Shown here piece after piece: positions 36,562 to 64,000 of a stretch of 64,000 bases of DNA. The translations under genes were made by a program, and so were the position numbers. Origin of the DNA: a virus. Taxonomy: Duplodnaviria > Heunggongvirae > Uroviricota > Caudoviricetes. Every line of letters begins with the position of its first letter. The stretch's first letter is position 1. Location: the IMG/VR virus record IMGVR_UViG_2695420523_000009, positions 12,534-76,533 of that record; one strand, given 5' to 3'. The notes beneath the pieces were generated by a model. It ran no database searches. It was not told where the DNA came from and saw only the letters and a program-made list of their open reading frames with translations.

Positions 36562-36746
36562 TTTGTTCTGGCGTCTGTAATTAGCCTGCTTCTGTATATA
36601 TAAATAACTACATATTAATTATTAATATACGGAAGCAGGCTGTTTTGTATCAGAGACTCCAGACCTGAACATCACTACAGAATCCACTAGAACCCCTTCC
36701 CAGACGCTTTAAAATCGATTTTATGAACCACTTTAAGGAAACCAAC

Positions 36747-38252: not shown

Positions 38253-38290
38253 NNNNNNNNNNNNNNNNNNNNNNNNNNNNNNNNNNNNNN
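38253..38290. other. assembly gap (run of 38 N)
   Basis: Literal N characters in the sequence. Confidence 1.
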
Positions 38291-38325
38291 CCCGCAACTC
38301 TTTCTGACACTGGATGGAGTCCACA

Positions 38326-46121: not shown

Positions 46122-47222
46122 TCACACTGCGCGGAATGCGATTTCGCCAGGTATTACTTCACCTTGCCAATACATTTGGGCAGCAACGCGATCTGCGAGG
46201 TCACGATAAATAGCCGTAAATTCGCTATCTGGACGACTAATAACGGTTGGTGTTCCGTTATCCAGATCTTCACGAAGAGAGATATGAAGTGGCATTTGGC
46301 CTAACAACTGCGTGTTGTATTTCTCGGCCAGTTTCTGTGCGCCACCGGTGCCAAAAATTGGCTCGTGATGACCGCAGTTACTGCAAATATGCACACTCAT
46401 GTTTTCGACGATACCTAGTACCGGCACTTCGACTTTTTCGAACATCACAATGCCTTTCTTCGCATCGATCAGCGCGATGTCTTGCGGCGTAGTTACCACA
46501 ACCGCACCAGTTACAGGAATGTTCTGCGCCAGCGTCAACTGAATATCACCAGTGCCCGGCGGCATATCGAGAACGAGATAGTCCAGATCAGGCCATAGAG
46601 TTTCCTGCAACATCTGCATCAGCGCCTTGCTGGCCATCGGTCCACGCCACACCATTGCATTGTCGTCGGTGACCAGATAACCAATAGAGTTGGTTGCCAG
46701 GCCATGAGACATGATAGGTGCCATGTGAGTACCGTCAGGTGAGGTTGGACGTTGGTTTTCCGCGCCCAGCATGGTTGGAATTGATGGACCATAGATATCG
46801 GCATCCAAAATACCAACTTTCGCACCTTCAGCAGCCAAAGCCAGTGCCAAGTTTACTGCTGTGGACGATTTGCCTACACCGCCCTTGCCTGAGCTTACGG
46901 CGATAATATTCTTAACACCATTAATGCCTGGTTGGTTTTTGACGCGCTTAAGCGTGGCAATGTTGTACGACAGCTTCCAGTCAATAGCCTTTGCGCCAGT
47001 GATACGGAGCAGATCACCACTACATTGCTCTTTCAGGTCTTCAAAAGGCTTATTCCACACGAAAGGCATGATTAGTTCGACATGCAGTGTGTCATCCATC
47101 AACGCAACATGGTGTAACGCTTTAAGCGTAGTCAGGTTGTGTTTCAGGGTTGGGTGCTGAAAATTAGCCAGCGTACCGGCTACCATTGCTCTCAGGGCAT
47201 CCGGCGATTTGGACTCGCTCAT
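46122..47222 (-). CDS. mrp: Fe-S cluster carrier ATPase Mrp/ApbC
   Basis: Protein essentially identical to E. coli Mrp as recalled (GKGGVGKSSTAVNLALALA, CSNCGHHEPIFG); RBS AAGGAG. Confidence 0.95.
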   Translation of the reverse strand: MSESKSPDALRAMVAGTLANFQHPTLKHNLTTLKALHHVALMDDTLHVELIMPFVWNKPFEDLKEQCSGDLLRITGAKAIDWKLSYNIATLKRVKNQPGINGVKNIIAVSSGKGGVGKSSTAVNLALALAAEGAKVGILDADIYGPSIPTMLGAENQRPTSPDGTHMAPIMSHGLATNSIGYLVTDDNAMVWRGPMASKALMQMLQETLWPDLDYLVLDMPPGTGDIQLTLAQNIPVTGAVVVTTPQDIALIDAKKGIVMFEKVEVPVLGIVENMSVHICSNCGHHEPIFGTGGAQKLAEKYNTQLLGQMPLHISLREDLDNGTPTVISRPDSEFTAIYRDLADRVAAQMYWQGEVIPGEIAFRAV

Positions 47223-47379
47223 CCCGTCTCCTTTATTTTAATTTGCGCAATTGTCGCCTTGTAGTGTACTCCAGCTGCGACATTTAATCATTTATGAGAA
47301 ATGCTGTTATCACATGGCAGACATAAGGCCATTTTGTTACTATCAAGCCCCTTTTCACTACAAAGAAGTAATGCCTACT

Positions 47380-49413
47380 ATGACCCAAGTCGCGAAGAAA
47401 ATTCTGGTGACGTGCGCGCTGCCGTACGCTAACGGCTCAATCCACCTCGGCCATATGCTGGAGCACATCCAGGCTGATGTCTGGGTTCGTTACCAGCGAA
47501 TGCGCGGCCACGAGGTTAATTTCATCTGTGCCGACGATGCCCACGGTACGCCGATCATGCTGAAAGCACAGCAACTTGGTATCACACCGGAGCAGATGAT
47601 TGGCGAAATGAGTCAGGAACACCAGACTGATTTCGCAGGCTTTAACATCAGCTATGACAACTATCACTCGACGCACAGCGAAGAGAACCGTCAGTTGTCT
47701 GAGCTTATCTATACTCGCCTGAAAGAGAACGGTTTTATTAAAAATCGCACTATCTCTCAGTTGTACGACCCGGAAAAAGGCATGTTCCTGCCGGATCGTT
47801 TTGTGAAAGGCACCTGCCCGAAATGTAAAGCGCCAGATCAATACGGCGATAACTGTGAAGTTTGCGGCGCGACCTACAGCCCGACTGAACTGATCGAGCC
47901 GAAATCGGTGGTTTCTGGTGCTACCCCGGTAATGCGTGATTCTGAACACTTCTTCTTTGATCTGCCCTCTTTCAGCGAAATGTTGCAGGCATGGACCCGC
48001 AGCGGTGCGTTGCAGGAGCAGGTGGCAAACAAAATGCAGGAGTGGTTTGAATCTGGTCTGCAACAGTGGGATATCTCCCGCGACGCACCTTACTTCGGTT
48101 TTGAAATTCCGAACGCGCCGGGCAAATATTTCTACGTCTGGCTGGACGCACCGATTGGCTACATGGGTTCCTTCAAGAATCTGTGCGACAAACGCGGCGA
48201 CACTACCAGCTTCGACGAATACTGGAAGAAAGACTCCACCGCCGAGCTGTACCACTTCATCGGTAAAGATATCGTTTACTTCCACAGCCTGTTCTGGCCT
48301 GCCATGCTGGAAGGCAGCAACTTCCGCAAGCCGACCAACCTGTTTGTTCATGGCTATGTGACGGTGAACGGCGCGAAGATGTCTAAGTCTCGCGGTACCT
48401 TTATTAAAGCCAGCACCTGGCTGAATCATTTTGACGCTGACAGCCTGCGTTACTACTACACTGCGAAACTCTCTTCGCGCATTGATGATATCGATCTCAA
48501 CCTGGAGGATTTCGTTCAGCGCGTGAATGCCGATATCGTGAACAAAGTGGTGAATCTGGCGTCCCGTAACGCGGGCTTTATCAATAAGCGTTTTGACGGT
48601 GTGCTGGCAGGCGAACTGGCTGACCCGCAACTGTACAAAACCTTTACTGATGCCGCTGAAGTGATTGGTGAAGCATGGGAAAGCCGCGAATTTGGTAAAG
48701 CGATTCGTGAAATCATGGCGCTGGCTGATCTGGCTAACCGCTATGTCGATGAACAGGCTCCGTGGGTGGTGGCGAAGCAGGAAGGACGCGATGCCGATCT
48801 GCAGGCGATTTGCTCTATGGGCATTAACCTGTTCCGCGTGCTGATGACGTACCTGAAACCGGTACTGCCGAAACTGACTGAACGTGCAGAAGCATTCCTG
48901 AATACAGAACTGACCTGGGATGGTATCCAGCAACCGCTGCTGGGCCATAAAGTGAATCCGTTCAAGGCACTGTATAACCGTATCGATATGAAACAGGTGG
49001 AAGCACTGGTGGAAGCATCCAAAGAAGAAGTGAAAGCCACAGCTGCACCGGTAACTGGCCCACTGGCTGACGACCCGATTCAGGAAACCATCACCTTTGA
49101 CGACTTCGCCAAAGTTGACCTGCGTGTGGCGCTGATTGAAAACGCGGAGTTTGTCGAAGGTTCTGACAAACTGCTGCGCCTGACGCTGGATCTCGGTGGT
49201 GAAAAGCGTAATGTCTTCTCAGGCATCCGTTCCGCTTATCCAGATCCACAGGCACTGATTGGTCGTCACACCATTATGGTGGCTAACCTGGCTCCGCGTA
49301 AAATGCGCTTCGGTATCTCTGAAGGCATGGTGATGGCTGCTGGCCCCGGCGGGAAAGATATCTTCCTGTTAAGCCCGGATGCCGGTGCTAAACCAGGCCA
49401 TCAGGTTAAGTAA
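47380..49413 (+). CDS. metG: methionyl-tRNA synthetase
   Basis: From [26 protein letters not shown] (HIGH motif) through KMSKS and the C-terminal tRNA-binding domain, collinear and near-identical to E. coli MetG (677 aa); start set to the internal ATG 47380. Confidence 0.97.
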
Positions 49414-58765: not shown

Positions 58766-59044
58766 TTATTTTAATCTGCTTAATAGCGTTTCGAGATCTT
58801 CCTTTGTCATATTAGAGTTCTCATAGATACGCATGATTTTCTCACGAGTCTTAGCGGAAGCCCCGACAGAAGATATAACCTTGTCAAAGTCGGCCATTGT
58901 CAATTGTTCCAGAATGGTATTTATGACTTCAGCCTTAGACATTTTGATATTTTTTTCTTTTAGTTTCACTTGAAACTTTCCAAGTTTGTCATTGGCCTTA
59001 TCAGACAATGCTACCTGACAGTAAGTTGTTTTCTTTTCACTCAT
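58766..59044 (-). CDS. hypothetical protein
   Basis: 92 aa, starts 2 nt after the helicase stop (coupled). Confidence 0.5.
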   Translation of the reverse strand: MSEKKTTYCQVALSDKANDKLGKFQVKLKEKNIKMSKAEVINTILEQLTMADFDKVISSVGASAKTREKIMRIYENSNMTKEDLETLLSRLK

Positions 59045-59046
59045 AA

Positions 59047-60606
59047 CTAATCTCGTTTCAGAACTCCAAAATCGAATGCTCCATCAATAGGCAATACACC
59101 TTCTGCAAAGCCAGGTGTGGTGTCGATGATGTGTTTTCGCTCATAAGAGTGAGACAACAGGTATTTGTTGCTAATGTCAATGAAATCAGTGATAAAACAC
59201 ACGTTTGCCTGATTTTTTTTGGCTCGTAAGCCACGACCGACACGCTGTCTCATTTCAACTTCTGCTTTCCCACCACCAGCAAGAATGACCGCACCAACGC
59301 TTGGCACATCAACACCAACATCCAGAATAGTCGAGCCTATTAAAACATCTATTTCACCAGACGCTAAACTATTCAGCTTTGCTTGCCTTGTCGTCTGGTT
59401 AGATTCCCCATAGATGAAATCAACTTTAAGACCTGACTCCTTCATCATCTCCATCAGGATTTGCCCGTGGCGTTTAAGACGAACCAGAGTCATGCAGTTG
59501 AGTGAATGTTGCTTATAAAGCAATGCCTCGCGCACTATGGCCTCGTTACGTCCCAAATTATACACGATCCCCAACTGATAAGCCTTTTGGTAGGCGGTGC
59601 TCATACCAACTCTAAAATTGAGGTGTTTGTTGGCAAGTTCGGCCTTGATTCTGGCCTCGTCTGGCTTGTAGGCAACTTTATGATAAAGGAAGTACGGCTT
59701 TGCCAGAATGCCTCGATCAATCAGGTACTTTTCTGTGACTTTAATTTCAATTCGCCCGGCCACCGCCATCAGGCGCATGTTGGCTTCCGTCGAATCCTTC
59801 ATGAACGGCGTGGCTGTAAGCGCCAGACGATAGTCTGCGTTCACACATAATCTGGCAATGTCATAGAAATTAGAGCCTGAAGACTCATGCGCTTCTTCCA
59901 GAATAAGCAGAGACACACTTGAAAGGAAGCGTTTCACCAACTCCCGACGTTTGAGATGGTAGCTCTTTTTATCTGGTGTTGCATCGCGTGGTGGTTCTTC
60001 AAGGAAACTTGCCAGAGTTTGAACTGTAGCGACGTTGATATGTCGTGATACCTGGAACTCACCCGAGCCAATGACTCCAACCTTTTGGCCCTTTAACCAC
60101 GGTTCGCCATTTTCGGCGCGGTAGTCGATGGATCTCTGGAAGTTTTCGGCCATTTGAAACATCAGAACAGAGCGGGTTGTTAAAAATAATGTCATTCGAC
60201 CGATACGTGCAGCTGCTTTGCAGGCAACGTTAGATTTCCCGCCACCAGTAGCGATCTGCGCAATCATCATTCCCTCTCGAACCAGTGTTTCCACAGTCTG
60301 ATCCTGATACGCATAATCAGGATTGTATGGGAATGGGTTAACCGCCGGATTTGGTTTACCAAGCGCCGGGGCTTTGTCTTTGCGGATATGAACACATTTG
60401 ATGCCCGCCTTGTTCAAGTTCGCCGCTACAGGCTTGGCAAAGCCAGCAGGGAACGAGTTTTTACTCCAGTTGAACATCGTGCTTGTGCCCTTCCAGTCGC
60501 CAGTCTCGACTTCGTAGCTCAACATTTGCTGCACCAGTTGCTTTACCTTGTCATCTGCGCCAGAAATAAGCGCATTTACTGCGTTAGATACAATCCGAAC
60601 AGTCAT
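59047..60606 (-). CDS. superfamily-2 DNA/RNA helicase (DEAD/DEAH-like, ResIII-type)
   Basis: Walker A IATGGGKS, DEAH-like LILEEAHE, motif III LTATP, motif VI QRVGRGLR. Confidence 0.85.
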   Translation of the reverse strand: MTVRIVSNAVNALISGADDKVKQLVQQMLSYEVETGDWKGTSTMFNWSKNSFPAGFAKPVAANLNKAGIKCVHIRKDKAPALGKPNPAVNPFPYNPDYAYQDQTVETLVREGMMIAQIATGGGKSNVACKAAARIGRMTLFLTTRSVLMFQMAENFQRSIDYRAENGEPWLKGQKVGVIGSGEFQVSRHINVATVQTLASFLEEPPRDATPDKKSYHLKRRELVKRFLSSVSLLILEEAHESSGSNFYDIARLCVNADYRLALTATPFMKDSTEANMRLMAVAGRIEIKVTEKYLIDRGILAKPYFLYHKVAYKPDEARIKAELANKHLNFRVGMSTAYQKAYQLGIVYNLGRNEAIVREALLYKQHSLNCMTLVRLKRHGQILMEMMKESGLKVDFIYGESNQTTRQAKLNSLASGEIDVLIGSTILDVGVDVPSVGAVILAGGGKAEVEMRQRVGRGLRAKKNQANVCFITDFIDISNKYLLSHSYERKHIIDTTPGFAEGVLPIDGAFDFGVLKRD

Positions 60607-60652
60607 AAACCTCTTTCCTTAGTGCCTTTTGTATGTTATTTGGCTATTATAA

Positions 60653-60668
60653 TAAGTAAGTGATTACT
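60653..60668. promoter_or_regulatory. palindrome AAGTAA-gtga-TTACTT in divergent promoter region
   Basis: Between the helicase (minus) and ParB-like (plus) genes. Confidence 0.4.
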
Positions 60669-60670
60669 TA

Positions 60671-61369
60671 GTGGATTGTAGCAATAAAATGGATGTAAAA
60701 ATCACGATTTTGCAGGTTGATGTTGCCAACCTTCGCCCGAATACCTGGAACACCAATTCGGTTGGTGCGCAGAATTTTGAAAAACTGAAAGGTTCTATCG
60801 AAAAATTGGGCTTTTTTAAGCCAATTTTGGCTCGTGAACTTGAAGATGGATTTTTTGAAATCCTCGGCGGTGAACATCGCTGGCGTGCTGCTATTGAGCA
60901 AGGAATTTCAACGGTTCCGGTGCTTTCTGTGGGCAAAATTAGCGATGTCGTAGCTAAACAGATGTCACTGGTGGACAACGAGCGATACGGTGAAGACGAC
61001 CAAATCGCATTGCAACGCTTCATTGAAGAAATTCAGTCAGAACTTGACTATCAACTGTCTGAAATCGCCCCGTATGACGACGAAATCTCGATGGTTTTAG
61101 CAAAAGAGGCGGCAATCGACCTTGAAGCACTGGAGGCGTTGTCTCGTGGTAGTGATGAGCCTGTCGATACCGACAAACGAGAGAAAACCGAACGTGTGGG
61201 TGCGGAACATCAGACCATGCGCTTCAAAGTAACTTTCGATGCGTCAGATCGTGTTGCAGAAACCATAAAAAACATCATCAAAGAGCAGGCTATTAACACC
61301 GGTAATGAAATGGAGAACGCTGGTGAGGCTCTGGTGTGGCTGGTTGACTACTACAAGGAGCGTATGTAA
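60671..61369 (+). CDS. ParB-like N-terminal (ParB/Srx) domain protein 1
   Basis: ParB/Srx core ILGGEHRWRAAIEQG; start uncertain (GTG 60671 or ATG 60689); stop overlaps next start. Confidence 0.7.
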   Translation: MDCSNKMDVKITILQVDVANLRPNTWNTNSVGAQNFEKLKGSIEKLGFFKPILARELEDGFFEILGGEHRWRAAIEQGISTVPVLSVGKISDVVAKQMSLVDNERYGEDDQIALQRFIEEIQSELDYQLSEIAPYDDEISMVLAKEAAIDLEALEALSRGSDEPVDTDKREKTERVGAEHQTMRFKVTFDASDRVAETIKNIIKEQAINTGNEMENAGEALVWLVDYYKERM

Positions 61370-62037
61370 TGACCAAAAAGTTTGAAATCGTATATCGCGA
61401 CCCGGCAGATCTTATTCCCTATGAGATGAATGCCAAAAAGCATGATGAACAGCAGATCCGAGATCTAGCCGCAGCCATTAAAAAGCGCGGATTTGACCAG
61501 CCAATTACGGTCGATAAGAACGACGTAATTATTACTGGCCACGGCCGCCGTGAGGCTGCAATTTTTGCTGGACTTGAGCGCGTACCGGTTATTGTTCGCG
61601 ATGATCTCAGTGATGACGAGGTTCGTGCGAAGCGCCTTGAAGATAACCGACTTGCCAGCATTGATTACGATGCAATTAAGCTACAGAAAGAGCTTGAGTC
61701 GCTTGTTCTGGACGATATCGAGGTTTTCGGCTTTGAAGAGCGTGAGTTGAATGTTCTCGTTGGCAGTATGACAGAAGAAATGGACACCGACTCGCTAGTT
61801 ATCGATCTTGGCGAAGAAACTAAACGACAGAAGGATGAACACACCGAGATCAGTCGTGAAGTTGCAGCGGAGGAAGTACGTGTTGTCGACGTATTGGGCT
61901 TTAAAACGCTCCCTGCTGGCTCTGCCATTGTTGTTGGTGATTTGCTTGCCCACATGGAAGAAATGACGGGAGAAAGCGGGGTAGACGCATTTGTGGCATA
62001 TGCGGAGAAGATCTCTTCCGGGGAGATGGCTGCATGA
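61369..62037 (+). CDS. ParB-like N-terminal (ParB/Srx) domain protein 2
   Basis: IITGHGRREAAIFAG ParB-box-like motif; acidic C-terminal half; 4-nt overlap with next gene. Confidence 0.7.
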   Translation: MTKKFEIVYRDPADLIPYEMNAKKHDEQQIRDLAAAIKKRGFDQPITVDKNDVIITGHGRREAAIFAGLERVPVIVRDDLSDDEVRAKRLEDNRLASIDYDAIKLQKELESLVLDDIEVFGFEERELNVLVGSMTEEMDTDSLVIDLGEETKRQKDEHTEISREVAAEEVRVVDVLGFKTLPAGSAIVVGDLLAHMEEMTGESGVDAFVAYAEKISSGEMAA

Positions 62038-62699
62038 GCAAATACATCATCAACGTATCGTTTCAGACACGCGTAAATAAAACCACGCGCACGTTGGAAA
62101 TCGCTGAGTCGTTCGGGCTTGGCCTGGACGAAAAAGAGTGGACGCTTTACGACAATCTGGAGCTGGAAGTGAAGCAGGGCGATGTGGTGTACATTACCGG
62201 CCAATCCGGTTCCGGCAAATCCGTTGTGCTGCGCGAGCTGCAACACCAGATGAAGGATGAAGGGCTATCTGTGGCCTCCATCGATGATTTTACCTTCGAT
62301 AATGAGGTTAACGTCATTGACCAACTGGGCAAAACTACCAGTGATGCGCTTGGGTTGTTATCTATGGCTGGTCTGAACGATGCATATCTGTTTGTTCGCA
62401 AGCCTTCTGAAATGTCAGACGGTCAGAAATATCGTCTCAAGATTGCCAAACTGATTGAGTCAGGCGCTAAAGTGTGGGCTGCTGACGAGTTCGGCGCTGT
62501 TCTCGACCGTGTAACCGCTCAGGTTGTGGCGTCTAACCTCCAGCGTGCCGCTCGAAAGGTTGGTGCGACGGTAATGGTGGCGACGACTCACGAAGACCTG
62601 AAGAACGCGCTGCGCCCGGATATGCAGATCACCAAGCACTACAAAGAACGCGTGAAGGTGGAATATCACAATGGTAGTCATGATGAGGTCCATTCATGA
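62034..62699 (+). CDS. ABC-type ATPase (stand-alone nucleotide-binding domain)
   Basis: Walker A GQSGSGKS, ABC signature-like MSDGQKYRL, Walker B/D-loop VWAADEFGAVLD, H-loop ATTHED. Confidence 0.75.
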   Translation: MSKYIINVSFQTRVNKTTRTLEIAESFGLGLDEKEWTLYDNLELEVKQGDVVYITGQSGSGKSVVLRELQHQMKDEGLSVASIDDFTFDNEVNVIDQLGKTTSDALGLLSMAGLNDAYLFVRKPSEMSDGQKYRLKIAKLIESGAKVWAADEFGAVLDRVTAQVVASNLQRAARKVGATVMVATTHEDLKNALRPDMQITKHYKERVKVEYHNGSHDEVHS

Positions 62700-63586
62700 C
62701 GGACATCATCATTAAACGCTACCGCCCTGAAGAGTTTCCGCGTCATCTGGACTTTCTGGAGCGAATGACTGTTACAAAGGGAACTGTAGAGGACTGGCAC
62801 GCTCTTAAGTCGCTTCACTACAAAACAGACGGCAAACCTTTCGCGCCAACTTACTATCGCTGCGAACTTGATGACCGTCTGGTGGGCGTCGTGGTTATGG
62901 CTTACCCGAAACTACTGTTGGCACCTCGCCACCGCATGTTTCCTAAGTTGAAACCAACCACTAATACCACCGTGGCTAACCAGTACTGGGGTCGGTACGT
63001 GAATAACAACTTTGCGGTGATCAGTCGCTCAGTTGTGGATACTCAGTATCGTGGCGTAGGCGTCTCTTATCGAATGATTAACCTGGTTAGCAGGATGCAT
63101 GACCGGCCAATCATTGAGATCCAGTCCTCGATGAGCAAATACAATCCCTTCGCCATGAAAGCAGGGTTTAAGTTCATCCGCCCTGAGCGACCGAAGAGCT
63201 ATGAAAGTGCACTGCGTGTATTCCAGCGCCATTTCCGTTCCGACCCGGGTGATAACGAGGCGATCGTCAAAGAGTTGTTCGCAATGAGCGAGTCTCGTCG
63301 TCGCCGTGCACTGCGTGATCTGGTGGCGGACTACCACAAGAACAGTTCCCTGGCAAAAGCTGGGCGGAATCGTGGCACGACGATTCAGGACATTGCCGAC
63401 AGTCTGGTGGACGAGGCCAGCATTGTGAAGCTGCTCAAGGACATTCACAACCTGAGCTTTACGTCTCCGTTGTATGGTGTGTACCGAAACCCTGACTTTG
63501 GTCGTCGACTGCCTGACACGCTGCCACTGCTGGCATTCGACAAACAATCTTTGGATAAACCGTTAGAAATTGCTTTACCGGCATAA
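62696..63586 (+). CDS. GNAT-family acyl/acetyltransferase domain protein with C-terminal extension
   Basis: Motif A-like VVDTQYRGVGVSYRMINLV and motif B-like NPFAMKAGFKFI; 4-nt overlap with upstream ATPase gene. Confidence 0.6.
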   Translation: MTDIIIKRYRPEEFPRHLDFLERMTVTKGTVEDWHALKSLHYKTDGKPFAPTYYRCELDDRLVGVVVMAYPKLLLAPRHRMFPKLKPTTNTTVANQYWGRYVNNNFAVISRSVVDTQYRGVGVSYRMINLVSRMHDRPIIEIQSSMSKYNPFAMKAGFKFIRPERPKSYESALRVFQRHFRSDPGDNEAIVKELFAMSESRRRRALRDLVADYHKNSSLAKAGRNRGTTIQDIADSLVDEASIVKLLKDIHNLSFTSPLYGVYRNPDFGRRLPDTLPLLAFDKQSLDKPLEIALPA

Positions 63587-63595
63587 GGATTTGCC

Positions 63596-63862
63596 ATGAC
63601 GTTAACCGATAAACAAAAGGACATCATCAAAACGCTCAATCTCGGTTATGAGCGAGGTCATCTACTTGACCTGGACGAATTGCTTGAAGTTTTGCCGTAC
63701 AAGACAACCAAGCAAAGTATCCAGTTCTCAATTCGCGCTCTGATAAAAAAAGGGCTGGTGGAGAAAGGGCATACGCGCCAACGCAGTGACAATCGCTATC
63801 ACCGCCGAACTCTTGGGTTAACTACTTTAGGTCGAGCCAAAGCGAAGTTACTGGTGATGTAA
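63596..63862 (+). CDS. putative winged-helix DNA-binding protein
   Basis: 88 aa; IRALIKKGLVEKGHTRQRSDNRYHRRTL resembles a wHTH recognition helix and wing. Confidence 0.45.
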   Translation: MTLTDKQKDIIKTLNLGYERGHLLDLDELLEVLPYKTTKQSIQFSIRALIKKGLVEKGHTRQRSDNRYHRRTLGLTTLGRAKAKLLVM

Positions 63863-64000
63863 TCGGTCTGGGAGCTTATTTAAAGACCTGCTTCTGGGTG
63901 ATGCTGCCAACTTACTGATTTAGTGTATGATGGTGTTTTTGAGGTGCTCCAGTGGCTTCTGTTTCTATCAGCTGTCCCTCCTGTTCAGCTACTGACGGGG

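What the first reader, a model, noticed from the sequence alone, without database searches (positions are those of the whole stretch)
60671..63862. Translationally coupled ParB-like / ParB-like / ABC-ATPase / GNAT operon with trailing wHTH gene
Four consecutive genes with overlapping stop/start codons (61369; 62034-62037; 62696-62699) encode two paralogous ParB/Srx-domain proteins, a minimal ABC-type ATPase and a GNAT-fold transferase with a 100-aa C-terminal tail, followed 10 bp later by a small winged-helix protein. I do not recognise this combination as a named partition, packaging, defence or DNA-modification system. ParB/Srx domains are CTP-binding or nuclease-like and GNAT folds include the phage Mu Mom DNA-modifying enzyme, so a DNA-targeting modification or anti-defence module is plausible. 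A partition role is less likely because the ATPase is ABC-type, not a ParA-type deviant Walker A.
Basis: partly seen in the sequence, partly recalled or inferred. Interest (0 to 1): 0.75.

Follow-up and report, generated by a model that had tools for sequence, protein, structure and literature searches.

The report
ParB–ABC–GNAT module beside phage terminase
This is a real, deeply conserved but experimentally uncharacterised five-gene phage operon (two ParB-like NTPases, an ABC ATPase, a GNAT acyltransferase, a small DNA-binding protein) lying just upstream of the DNA-packaging genes; it most likely marks or processes phage DNA late in infection and is not a plasmid-partition system.

Summary
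Five co-oriented genes sit at 60689(60671)-63862, joined by TAATG, ATGA, ATGA and a 9-nt spacer. The window is an E. coli SSU5-like phage-plasmid, 99% identical to phage Cyrano.

The gene order helicase(-) | ParB ParB ABC GNAT wHTH | TerS TerL portal is kept in 27 of 28 species-level loci, down to 37% identity. It also occurs in ~105-120 kb siphophages of Pseudomonas, Rhizobium, Stenotrophomonas and Xanthomonas.

The ABC and GNAT genes are the split form of a widespread ABC-GNAT fusion family, annotated as COG2401/MK0520-type. In unrelated phages a ParB -> ABC-GNAT pair lies directly before TerS/TerL. In a metagenomic clade the fusion follows TerL. ParB-ABC-GNAT and PolB-ABC-GNAT fusions also exist.

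In Cyrano RNA-seq the five genes are at background in the plasmid state, which argues against partition. No PADLOC defence hit, permease or ParA was found.

Best reading, which is inferred and not shown: a "ParB-terminase locus" DNA-modification module. NTP-gated ParB clamps would deliver an ATP-gated GNAT acyltransferase to phage DNA before packaging. Precedents are ParB-MTase fusions, ParB-dependent T-dioxygenases, DpdB and Mom. I rate it a new variant of a known kind, and the substrate is unknown.

The parts
60689..61369 (+). ParB-like protein 1 (226 aa from the ATG; the maximal ORF starts at GTG 60671). It has an N-terminal ParB/Srx NTPase fold with GEHRWRAA and DNERYG motifs and an acidic C-terminal half.
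   Evidence: PF02195 E 3e-13; phrog_723 E 2e-79; aligns to Spo0J/ParB/Noc N-domains; motifs conserved in 29 orthologues.
61369..62037 (+). ParB-like protein 2 (222 aa), a paralogue of protein 1. It carries GHGRREAA and EDNR motifs. Its closest relatives are the ParB domains fused to phage DNA methyltransferases.
   Evidence: E 1e-8; phrog_930 E 1e-112; phrog_498 DNA MTase E 2e-31; PADLOC MTase_II N-terminal region E 3e-17.
62034..62699 (+). Soluble ABC-type ATPase (221 aa). Walker A is GQSGSGKS, the signature is MSDGQKYR, Walker B with the catalytic Glu is AADEF, the D-loop is LDR and the H-loop is TTHED. It has a family-specific N-terminal AExFGLGxD motif. It corresponds to the N-terminal half of ABC-GNAT fusion proteins.
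   Evidence: phrog_293, phrog_11143; P0160 aligns across both window genes, 35% identity, 75% coverage.
62696..63586 (+). GNAT-fold acyltransferase (296 aa). The GNAT core spans about residues 20-165 and has an R119-x-x-G122 acyl-CoA loop and an invariant H41-Y42-K43. It is followed by a conserved helical subdomain and a returning beta-strand (PLYGVYxNPD). It corresponds to the C-terminal half of ABC-GNAT fusions.
63596..63862 (+). Small (88 aa) putative winged-helix DNA-binding protein, the last gene of the operon.
   Evidence: (phrog_900 E 2e-46); detected after the GNAT gene in 19 of 28 related loci.
63887..63896 (+). Remnant of the left arm (CCTGCTTCTG) of a GC-clamped, AT-rich hairpin or palindrome. 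In intact relatives this element separates the operon from terS. Here IS1 cuts it at 63896/63897.
60607..60688 (.). 82-bp divergent intergenic region between the UvsW-like helicase gene (59047-60606, - strand) and ParB1. It is the presumed promoter region of the operon, but no consensus promoter was found there.
   Evidence: the divergent helicase | ParB arrangement is conserved in 27 loci.

Best explanation
The operon is a lytic-cycle, DNA-directed enzyme module of the 'ParB-terminase locus' type.

Proposed mechanism (inferred):
1. The two ParB-like paralogues bind a nucleotide triphosphate and close as a clamp on phage DNA, probably as a heterodimer.
2. They recruit or activate the ABC ATPase-GNAT pair, a split version of a single-chain ABC-GNAT enzyme.
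3. ATP-driven dimerisation of the ABC domains positions the GNAT domains on the substrate.
4. The GNAT domain transfers an acyl group, from acyl-CoA or conceivably an aminoacyl-tRNA as in Mom, onto a DNA base. This happens after replication and before or during packaging, so that progeny DNA is marked against host nucleases.
5. The small wHTH protein is a specificity or regulatory subunit.

Shown here: gene anatomy, folds, intact catalytic motifs, deep co-conservation, terminase linkage, the fusions, and silence in lysogeny.
Inferred: complex formation, DNA as the substrate, the chemistry, and the anti-restriction benefit.
For: 1. Co-conservation. 27 of 28 species-level loci keep Hel(-) | ParB ParB ABC GNAT | TerS TerL portal, down to 37% GNAT identity. 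The same order is seen in phages nickie, RHph_N1_15 and JGB6 and in three further distant contigs.

2. Functional linkage by fusion. About 60 of the best 150 distant relatives are single-chain ABC-GNAT proteins. The fused model has pLDDT 91.5 and pTM 0.87, which indicates a fixed inter-domain geometry. There are ParB_N-ABC-GNAT triple fusions (L194, L197; custom ParB HMM E 1e-27 and 1e-33). A PolB-ABC-GNAT fusion is seen in 35 collection blocks, in a phage replication module.

3. Terminase linkage in independent lineages. ParB -> ABC-GNAT lies directly before TerS/TerL in S. pyogenes prophage 315.4, Gordonia Axumite, Leptospira LE4 and Pasteurella Pmp13; in Pmp13 it is downstream of the Q antiterminator and the lysis genes, so in the late operon. 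TerL -> ABC-GNAT occurs in a metagenomic clade, where Terminase_6N was found in 31 of about 64 loci within the two upstream genes.

4. Effector swapping. The ParB partner in 315.4 is 55-87% identical to ParB domains of proteins annotated as DNA methylases or DUF4417 at the same genome position. The window ParBs match the ParB part of MTase fusions best.

5. Intact motifs. The ParB GxxR and DN.R motifs, all ABC motifs including the catalytic Glu, and the GNAT R-x-x-G loop are conserved.

6. Lytic-phase expression. In 99%-identical Cyrano the five genes read 5.0-9.5, against a prophage median of 9.8 and 46 and 114 for the neighbouring genes.

7. Precedents. ParB-Tls loci are predicted to modify DNA during packaging (PMC4738411). 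ParB-dependent T-dioxygenases are described in PMC13229309. DpdB is a ParB-like ATPase that assists DpdA. Mom is a GNAT that acylates dsDNA late in infection (PMC13219725).
Against: - There are no data on base composition of SSU5-like virion DNA. No paper was found on this module in 10 searches.
- The relationship to Mom is not significant (hhalign E 0.3; Pfam Mom PF25680 not hit).
- The ABC domain is closest to transporter-type NBDs, not to DNA-binding ABC ATPases such as Rad50, UvrA or MutS.
- No ParB was detected near the TerL-ABC-GNAT metagenomic clade, so ParB is not obligatory.
- In SSU5-like genomes a terminator-like hairpin separates the operon from terS.
- The ParB C-terminal halves have no recognisable DNA-binding domain and were not modelled.
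Confidence: 0.4

Rival explanations
1. Packaging or DNA-maturation accessory with no covalent DNA modification. The ParB-like proteins (as clamp or nickase) and the ABC ATPase would help terminase find, clear or cut the packaging substrate. The GNAT would acetylate a protein partner such as TerS, TerL, portal or a host nucleoid protein like HU.
For: The gene pair is adjacent to TerS/TerL in at least four independent gene orders. In many viral contigs the ABC-GNAT gene lies within 0-1 kb of the contig end. The SSU5 and Cyrano linear records end just after the operon. ParB/Srx proteins can nick DNA (cited in PMC12839542). Soluble ABC NBDs that remodel enzyme complexes, such as PhnK/L and MCR A2, are among the structural neighbours.
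Against: A TerS-like and a TerL gene are already present. The PolB-ABC-GNAT fusion lies in a replication module, not a packaging one. The closest ParB relatives are fused to DNA methyltransferases, not nucleases. A terminator-like hairpin separates the operon from terS.
Confidence: 0.2
2. Host-takeover or anti-defence enzyme that acts on a non-DNA target. An ATP-dependent GNAT would acetylate a host protein, a polyamine or another small molecule, or a defence signal. The ParB-like proteins would serve only as NTP-sensing regulators.
Against: The module has a fixed position at the replication/packaging boundary and behaves as a core gene set, not a variable moron, across Alpha-, Beta- and Gammaproteobacterial phages. 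It is fused to PolB and to ParB_N. There is no PADLOC hit and no match to a known anti-defence family.
Confidence: 0.12
3. RNA or tRNA acetyltransferase analogous to TmcA/NAT10 (an NTPase plus a GNAT that makes ac4C on tRNA-Met), possibly tied to the phage's own translation genes.
For: NTPase plus GNAT is the TmcA design (own knowledge). The element encodes a full-length MetRS. Phage nickie carries tRNA-Met and tRNA-Asn next to the helicase/ParB module. Gordonia Axumite has a Formyl_trans_N gene between ABC-GNAT and terminase. ASCH-domain genes occur in Cyrano and beside the module in prophage 315.4.
Against: There is no sequence match to the TmcA/NAT10 GNAT or helicase families. The ParB association, the PolB fusion and the terminase adjacency all point to DNA. 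The tRNA, MetRS and Fmt links are scattered coincidences, each seen in a single lineage.
Confidence: 0.06
4. Plasmid partition system of the phage-plasmid, with ParB centromere-binding proteins and an unusual ABC-type motor.
For: Genes are annotated as ParB or 'partition' in public records. No ParA-type partition ATPase is evident in this part of the element: the 'MinD' gene is an Mrp/NUBPL-type protein. Pfeifer et al. read the duplicated ParB genes of related Acinetobacter phage-plasmids as partition genes.
Against: The five genes are at or below background in the plasmid-prophage state of Cyrano. The same module is present in integrated prophages on Mb-scale contigs and in phages not known to be plasmids. 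There is no ParA-binding motif, and no HTH or other known domain is detectable in the C-terminal halves. Scores are far below the TIGR00180 cut-off (43 against 58 bits). The module always sits next to the terminase genes.
Confidence: 0.02

Closest known systems
Phage 'ParB-terminase large subunit (Tls) loci' carrying DNA methyltransferases (Iyer, Zhang & Aravind; PMC4738411), including ParB_N-N6/N4 MTase fusions
   Same: A ParB-fold protein and a nucleic-acid-modifying enzyme are encoded immediately next to the terminase genes. The window ParBs are most similar to the ParB part of these MTase fusions. The published prediction is modification of phage DNA as part of packaging.
   Different: The effector here is an ABC ATPase plus a GNAT acyltransferase, not a SAM-dependent methyltransferase. 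There are two ParB paralogues plus a wHTH gene. The effector is not fused to ParB, except in rare triple fusions.
ParB-dependent phage thymidine dioxygenases (5mYOX + ParB; PMC13229309, bioRxiv 10.1101/2025.08.14.668559)
   Same: A short phage ParB (an NTPase domain plus a C-terminal domain, with no canonical DNA-binding domain detected) is encoded beside a DNA-modifying enzyme and is required to activate it. Terminases co-occur frequently.
   Different: The enzyme class differs (Fe/2OG dioxygenase against ABC-GNAT). ParB dependence is shown experimentally there and only inferred here.
Phage Mu Mom (GNAT-superfamily enzyme that transfers glycine from Gly-tRNA to N6-adenine in dsDNA; PMC13219725)
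   Different: There is no significant sequence relationship (hhalign E 0.3; PF25680 not hit). The window protein keeps a canonical R-x-x-G-x-(G/A/S) acyl-CoA loop at the position where Mom has PRNSES. Mom needs neither an ATPase nor a ParB.
COG2401 / 'MK0520' family: ABC-type ATPase fused to a predicted acetyltransferase domain (uncharacterised)
   Same: The window ABC and GNAT genes together align along the fused proteins. Public records already use this name for the GNAT gene.
   Different: Here the two domains are separate, translationally coupled genes, in some relatives with 1-3 small genes inserted between them. No function is known for the family, and no paper was found.
DpdA/DpdB of the Dpd 7-deazaguanine DNA-modification system
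   Same: A ParB-like NTPase (DpdB) supplies NTP-dependent assistance to an enzyme that modifies DNA bases.
   Different: The enzyme and the chemistry differ (TGT-like transglycosylase). Dpd is a cellular defence system with restriction components. There is no ABC ATPase.
TmcA / NAT10 (NTPase + GNAT, forms N4-acetylcytidine in RNA)
   Same: The design principle is the same: an NTP-hydrolysing module coupled to a GNAT that acylates a nucleobase (own knowledge).
   Different: The ATPase is helicase-type, not an ABC NBD. The substrate is RNA. No sequence match was found.
ParABS plasmid/chromosome partition
   Same: Both have the ParB N-terminal NTPase fold with GxxR-type motifs.
   Different: There is no ParA, no ParA-binding motif and no detectable HTH or centromere. 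The genes are silent in the plasmid state and are also present in non-plasmid phages.

Membership tests
ParABS partition system | A ParA (deviant Walker A) ATPase encoded with ParB | tested here: not met
   The operon's ATPase is ABC-type. The only ParA/MinD-annotated gene in the window (46122-47222) is Mrp/NUBPL-type (PF10609 E 2e-102) and lies 14 kb away.
ParABS partition system | Canonical ParB architecture: N-terminal ParA-binding motif, HTH centromere-binding domain, TIGR00180 membership | tested here: not met
   There is no [LFI]G[KR]G[LFI] motif. TIGR00180 scores 43 bits against a cut-off of 58.45. No Pfam domain is found in the C-terminal halves. No structure was predicted for the ParBs.
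ParABS partition system | Expression while the element is maintained as a plasmid | tested here: not met
   Cyrano (99% identical) RNA-seq: CYRAN_119-123 read 5.0-9.5, against a prophage median of 9.8 and a cut-off of 49 (PMC9928086 S1 Table).
ParB/Srx NTPase fold (PF02195) | N-terminal domain with box II GxxR and box III motifs | tested here: met
   PF02195 E 3e-13 and 1e-8, above the gathering score. GEHRWRAA/DNERYG and GHGRREAA/EDNR are conserved across 29 orthologues. Nucleotide binding itself is not testable here.
ABC transporter | NBD motifs (Walker A/B, signature, D- and H-loops) | tested here: met
ABC transporter | Associated permease or transmembrane domain | tested here: not met
   No membrane protein is encoded in the operon or in any of 27 related loci. 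The partner domain in the fusions is a GNAT. The 'ABC transporter' annotation is a misnomer.
GNAT superfamily | GNAT fold and an acyl-CoA pyrophosphate-binding loop (Q/R-x-x-G-x-G/A) at the beta4-alpha3 junction | tested here: met
ABC-GNAT fusion family (COG2401 / MK0520-type) | Homology of both halves to the single-chain ABC-GNAT proteins, with shared family-specific motifs (AExFGLGxD, FHY[KR], YNPFxxKAG) | tested here: met
   The profile search recovers fusions at E 1e-28 to 1e-15. Pfam shows ABC_tran plus Acetyltransf domains in them. tblastn of P0160 spans both window genes. The motifs are visible. The equation with COG2401 rests on source annotations; the COG profile itself was not searched.
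Mom family (PF25680) DNA adenine-modifying GNAT | Sequence membership in the Mom family and the catalytic set H58, Y59, R111, S124, D149, R151 | tested here: not met
Known anti-phage defence systems (PADLOC-DB 2.0) | A match of the gene set to a defence-system model | tested here: not met
   Only generic domain-level hits were found: the ParB part of MTase_II, and the P-loop of mad3/PtuA. There is none for the GNAT.
Phage ParB-terminase (Tls) locus DNA-modification modules | A ParB-fold gene and a nucleic-acid-modifying enzyme encoded adjacent to terS/terL in a phage | tested here: met
   The concept comes from PMC4738411.
Phage ParB-terminase (Tls) locus DNA-modification modules | Actual modification of phage DNA by the encoded enzyme | not testable with these tools
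   This needs nucleoside LC-MS or sequencing-kinetics data on virion DNA. No such data were found in the papers searched.

The most novel reading that the evidence does not exclude
ABC-GNAT would be a new class of DNA-hypermodifying enzyme. An ATP-gated GNAT is loaded by NTP-dependent ParB clamps, or tethered directly to the polymerase in the PolB fusions. It installs a hitherto undescribed acyl or aminoacyl mark on a base of phage DNA just before packaging. The donor might be an aminoacyl-tRNA, as in Mom. That would give meaning to the phage-encoded MetRS, the tRNA-Met next to the module in nickie, and the formyltransferase next to it in Gordonia phages.
Probability: 0.25. Interest if true: 0.85.

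Novelty: new variant of a known kind. Interest (0 to 1): 0.62.

Why it matters
The module is a core gene set of a large siphophage lineage. That lineage includes the clinically widespread SSU5, pHCM2, pMT1 and pKpn phage-plasmids of E. coli, Salmonella, Klebsiella and Yersinia pestis; more than 700 plasmid records carry it nearly intact.

Its ABC-GNAT core recurs, fused or split, in hundreds of protein clusters from unrelated phages and archaea-like sequences, always without a known function. Public annotation calls these genes 'partition proteins' and 'ABC transporters', and the evidence here argues against both names.

If the enzyme modifies DNA, it would add an ATP-dependent GNAT to the small set of phage DNA-hypermodification chemistries. 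It would extend the emerging rule that ParB-fold NTPases act as loaders for DNA-modifying enzymes. It would also bear on how phage-plasmids that carry resistance genes evade restriction when they infect new hosts.

The hypothesis is directly testable, because culturable phages (SSU5, Cyrano, nickie, Axumite, LE4) are available.

Tried and rejected
- **Partition system:** rejected. There is no ParA, no ParA-binding motif, sub-threshold TIGR00180 scores, silence in lysogeny and presence in non-plasmid phages.
- **ABC transporter:** rejected, because there is no permease and the partner domain is a GNAT.
- **Known defence system:** no PADLOC match.
- **Terminase substitute:** rejected, because separate TerS-like and TerL genes follow the operon.
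- **Specific kinship to Mom:** hhalign with a single sequence and with a 28-sequence Mom alignment gave E 0.3, and the second half of the alignment was topologically off-register. This is not accepted as evidence; only the H-Y dyad is noted.
- **Sequence search of the GNAT protein against the PDB:** nothing was found.
- **Pfam on the isolated C-terminal halves of both ParBs and of the GNAT protein:** nothing was found.
- **IMG/VR scan with the window-type GNAT alignment:** it returned only near-identical SSU5-like loci and was uninformative for diversity. The species-level genome collection was used instead.
- **First crude gene caller (longest-ORF greedy):** it failed in high-GC loci and was replaced by labelling all ORFs with HMMs.
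- **Contexts of P0154 and P0188:** the contigs were short or uninformative.
- **afdb50 fold library:** unavailable.
- **Literature:** searches for COG2401, for 'ATPase fused to a predicted acetyltransferase domain', for ParB + ABC + terminase, and for ParB + CTP + packaging found no study of this module. Iyer et al. 2013 (NAR) could not be retrieved, so I cannot exclude that ABC-GNAT is mentioned there.
- **IS1 rearrangement:** the idea that the palindrome copy at window 36585 reflected an IS1-mediated rearrangement was rejected. Cyrano has the same second copy, and the window is collinear with it.

Full report
**1. The observation.** The window holds five co-oriented ORFs: 60671-61369, 61369-62037, 62034-62699, 62696-63586 and 63596-63862. 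The junctions read TAATG, ATGA, ATGA and a 9-nt spacer, with Shine-Dalgarno-like purine runs before genes 2, 3 and 5. Relatives annotate the first gene from the ATG at 60689. Pfam finds ParB_N in genes 1 and 2, ABC_tran in gene 3, a sub-threshold GNAT hit in gene 4 and a sub-threshold LexA-type wHTH hit in gene 5. All five match PHROG families at E 2e-46 to 2e-165. The two ParBs are paralogues, 33% identical over the N-domain, E 5e-10. The description is therefore correct, and these are real genes.

**2. What the element is.** The region is 99% identical to Escherichia phage Cyrano and to hundreds of E. coli plasmids. It is 85% identical to Salmonella phage SSU5 and 81% to Klebsiella phage-plasmids, and it is also present in Yersinia pestis. 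The window is collinear with Cyrano over its T4-like replication, recombination and nucleotide-metabolism genes.
- In intact relatives the operon is followed, after a 196-bp gap, by a TerS-like gene, TerL, portal and capsid genes on the same strand.
- It is preceded by a divergent UvsW-like helicase gene.
- In this window an IS1 has inserted 35 bp after the operon.

**3. Co-conservation.** The GNAT protein has 341 word-index homologues. Three distant examples at about 44% identity (Ectothiorhodospira, Hyphomonas and a metagenomic 3.3-Mb contig) show the same order: helicase(-) | ParB ParB ABC [0-3 small genes] GNAT small-gene | TerS TerL portal.
- tblastn finds the gene in ~105-120 kb siphophages of Pseudomonas (nickie), Rhizobium (RHEph10, RHph_N1_15), Stenotrophomonas and Xanthomonas, with the same arrangement.
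- In the one-genome-per-species collection, 28 loci were recovered, from Enterobacterales, Alpha- and Betaproteobacteria, Acinetobacter, Halomonas and others, at 37-99% identity. Labelling all ORFs with HMMs showed two ParBs, ABC and GNAT in order in 27 of them. The 28th is truncated upstream. TerS, TerL and portal follow wherever flank exists.

**4. The proteins.**
- *ParBs.* Both align to the N-terminal CTPase domain of Spo0J, ParB and Noc. They keep box II (GEHRWRAA, GHGRREAA) and box III-like (DNERYG, EDNR) motifs, which are conserved in 29 orthologues. They fall below the partition-ParB cut-off. They lack a ParA-binding motif, and their acidic C-terminal halves have no detectable domain. 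Their best profile matches beyond their own PHROGs are the ParB parts of phage DNA methyltransferase fusions.
- *ABC protein.* It has every NBD motif, including the catalytic glutamate. Structurally it resembles transporter-type NBDs and soluble NBDs that drive enzyme complexes. No permease is present.

**5. ABC plus GNAT is a split enzyme.** A profile search of 1.84 billion representatives found 983 clusters at E <= 1e-3 and 253 at E <= 1e-10.
- About 60 of the best 150 are 410-700-aa proteins in which the GNAT region starts near residue 200. Pfam shows ABC_tran followed by a GNAT domain in these. Their sequences share the family motifs of the window's two genes. One of them aligns across both window genes.
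- The fused protein models as one rigid unit (pLDDT 91.5, pTM 0.87). No solved structure covers both domains. In BFVD only Leptospira phage LE4 gp15 matches full-length.
- Variants include an intein in the ABC domain and a C-terminal TFIIB-like extension. Two ParB_N-ABC-GNAT triple fusions exist. A family-B DNA polymerase-ABC-GNAT fusion is found on many contigs, inside a phage replication module.
- Sources label the family 'ABC-type ATPase fused to a predicted acetyltransferase domain (MK0520)'. I found no paper on it.

**6. Linkage to terminase and to ParB outside the SSU5 lineage.**
- In S. pyogenes prophage 315.4, Gordonia phage Axumite (genes 1-2), Leptospira phage LE4 (gp14-15) and Pasteurella phage Pmp13, a single ParB-like gene overlaps or abuts an ABC-GNAT gene a few genes upstream of TerS/TerL. 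In Pmp13 the pair lies downstream of the Q antiterminator and the lysis genes, so in the late operon.
- In a metagenomic viral clade the order is TerL -> ABC-GNAT, often at the contig end. Terminase_6N was found in 31 of about 64 loci within the two upstream genes, and no ParB was detected there.
- The ParB partner in 315.4 is 55-87% identical to ParB domains of proteins annotated as DNA methylase or DUF4417, at the same position in other Firmicutes phages. The same ParB module therefore pairs alternatively with a methyltransferase or with ABC-GNAT.

**7. Expression.** In E. coli LF82 carrying Cyrano as a plasmid prophage, CYRAN_119-123 read 5.0, 9.5, 9.2, 8.0 and 7.8. The prophage median is 9.8 and the 'expressed' cut-off is 49. 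The adjacent helicase and CYRAN_117 read 46 and 114 (PMC9928086). The operon is therefore repressed in lysogeny, like the structural genes.

**8. Interpretation.** I reject the partition and transporter readings (section 7; membership table). [quoted passage not shown] Experimental precedents now exist for ParB-fold NTPases as obligatory partners of DNA-modifying enzymes:
- ParB-dependent T-dioxygenases, whose ParBs also lack a DNA-binding domain;
- DpdB working with DpdA;
- a broad survey of ParB-fold fusions with varied NTP specificity.

Mom shows that a GNAT-fold enzyme can acylate dsDNA in the lytic phase, using Gly-tRNA as donor.

I therefore propose a ParB-loaded, ATP-gated GNAT that acts on phage DNA before packaging, with confidence 0.4. 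Folds, motifs, conservation, fusions, genomic linkage and silence in lysogeny are shown. Complex formation, DNA as substrate, the chemistry and the benefit are inferred.

Points against the proposal:
- There are no DNA-composition data.
- The GNAT hits do not discriminate substrates.
- The relationship to Mom is not significant.
- The NBD is transporter-like.
- ParB is absent from one clade.
- A terminator-like hairpin lies before terS.

The rivals are a non-covalent packaging accessory or protein acetylation, a host-directed acetyltransferase, a TmcA-like RNA enzyme, and partition. Their weights are given in the rivals section.

**9. Novelty.** The gene families are catalogued (PHROGs, COG-type annotation), and the locus type has been discussed in the literature. 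However, the ABC-GNAT effector, its split form, the paired ParBs, and the ParB and PolB fusions appear undescribed in the literature I could search, and no function has been tested. I rate it a new variant of a known kind, with interest 0.62.

Noticed in passing
window 63897-64000 (IS1 left end); insertion point 63896/63897: An IS1 (GGTGATGCTGCCAACTTACTGAT...) is inserted 35 bp after the wHTH stop codon. The insertion point lies inside the left arm of the hairpin that separates the operon from terS in intact relatives. It may uncouple or disturb expression or packaging functions at the head of the terminase operon in this particular plasmid.
   Followed up: partly
L002 12288-12342 (intact relative); second copy at window 36584-36641: A roughly 55-bp GC-clamped, AT-rich nested palindrome (GCCTGCTTCTGTATATAT...ATATATACGGAAGCAGGC) occurs twice in the element. 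One copy follows the adenine-methyltransferase gene and is followed by TGTTTTGT. The other follows the wHTH gene. The linear GenBank records of SSU5 and Cyrano end near its centre. It is either an operon-end terminator-like hairpin or a terminus/pac-cos element. Analogous GC-flanked AT-rich inverted repeats lie in the same gap in Xenorhabdus (L094) and Piscirickettsiaceae (L098) relatives.
   Followed up: partly
window 17099, 28829, 39075, 39804, 49499, 49550, 53207, 54110, 54874 (11-bp sites); L002 12407: The palindromic motif AACAANTTGTT is strongly over-represented: 22 strand-matches at <=1 mismatch against 2.1 expected, and 0 of 100 shuffles reach that count. Every exact site maps to an intergenic gap about 25-50 bp upstream of a + strand gene. 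In intact relatives one site lies 52 bp upstream of terS. The motif is absent from distant relatives. It is a candidate set of scattered operator or promoter sites for a lineage-specific regulator.
   Followed up: partly
window 46122-47222 (-) and 47251-49413 (+): The gene annotated 'MinD / septum site-determining protein' in Cyrano is an Mrp/NUBPL-type P-loop protein (PF10609, E 2e-102), not a partition ParA. The gene next to it is a full-length methionyl-tRNA synthetase with a tRNA_bind domain. CYRAN_99 is expressed in lysogeny (9x background). No ParA-type partition ATPase is evident in this 64-kb part of the phage-plasmid.
   Followed up: partly
window 38253-38291: A run of N (masked or unresolved bases) interrupts the window. 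The flanks align to Cyrano on both sides.
   Followed up: no
Cyrano CYRAN_75 (about window 33.1-33.8 kb), next to the DHFR gene: A second small stand-alone 'ABC transporter ATP-binding protein' (about 214 aa) is encoded within the nucleotide-metabolism cluster. It was not compared with the operon's ABC protein.
   Followed up: no
L122 1805-2452 (Gordonia phage Axumite gene 3): The gene between ABC-GNAT and terminase, annotated 'tRNA-methyltransferase', carries a Formyl_trans_N domain (E 1e-8). This is a possible additional tailoring enzyme in that version of the module.
   Followed up: no
Cyrano CYRAN_64 (about window 20.9-21.6 kb); L121 5981-6358 (prophage 315.4): ASCH-domain proteins, predicted readers or hydrolases of modified nucleic-acid bases, are encoded in the element. 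In the S. pyogenes prophage one lies two genes downstream of the ParB/ABC pair.
   Followed up: no
L117 (Halomonas sulfidaeris chromosome), L094 and L105: The chromosomal Halomonas copy is decayed: the helicase, GNAT, TerL and portal genes are each split into pieces. The TerL ORFs of L094 (749 aa) and L105 (838 aa) are about twice the usual length, which suggests inteins. One ABC-GNAT relative (P0167) has an intein in its ABC domain.
   Followed up: no
window 58766-59044 (-), homologue of CYRAN_117: The small gene beside the helicase encodes a 92-aa protein. It is one of the few Cyrano genes strongly transcribed in lysogeny (114 against a background of 9.8), and the helicase itself reads 46. 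The divergent neighbours of the silent operon are therefore active in the prophage state.
   Followed up: no
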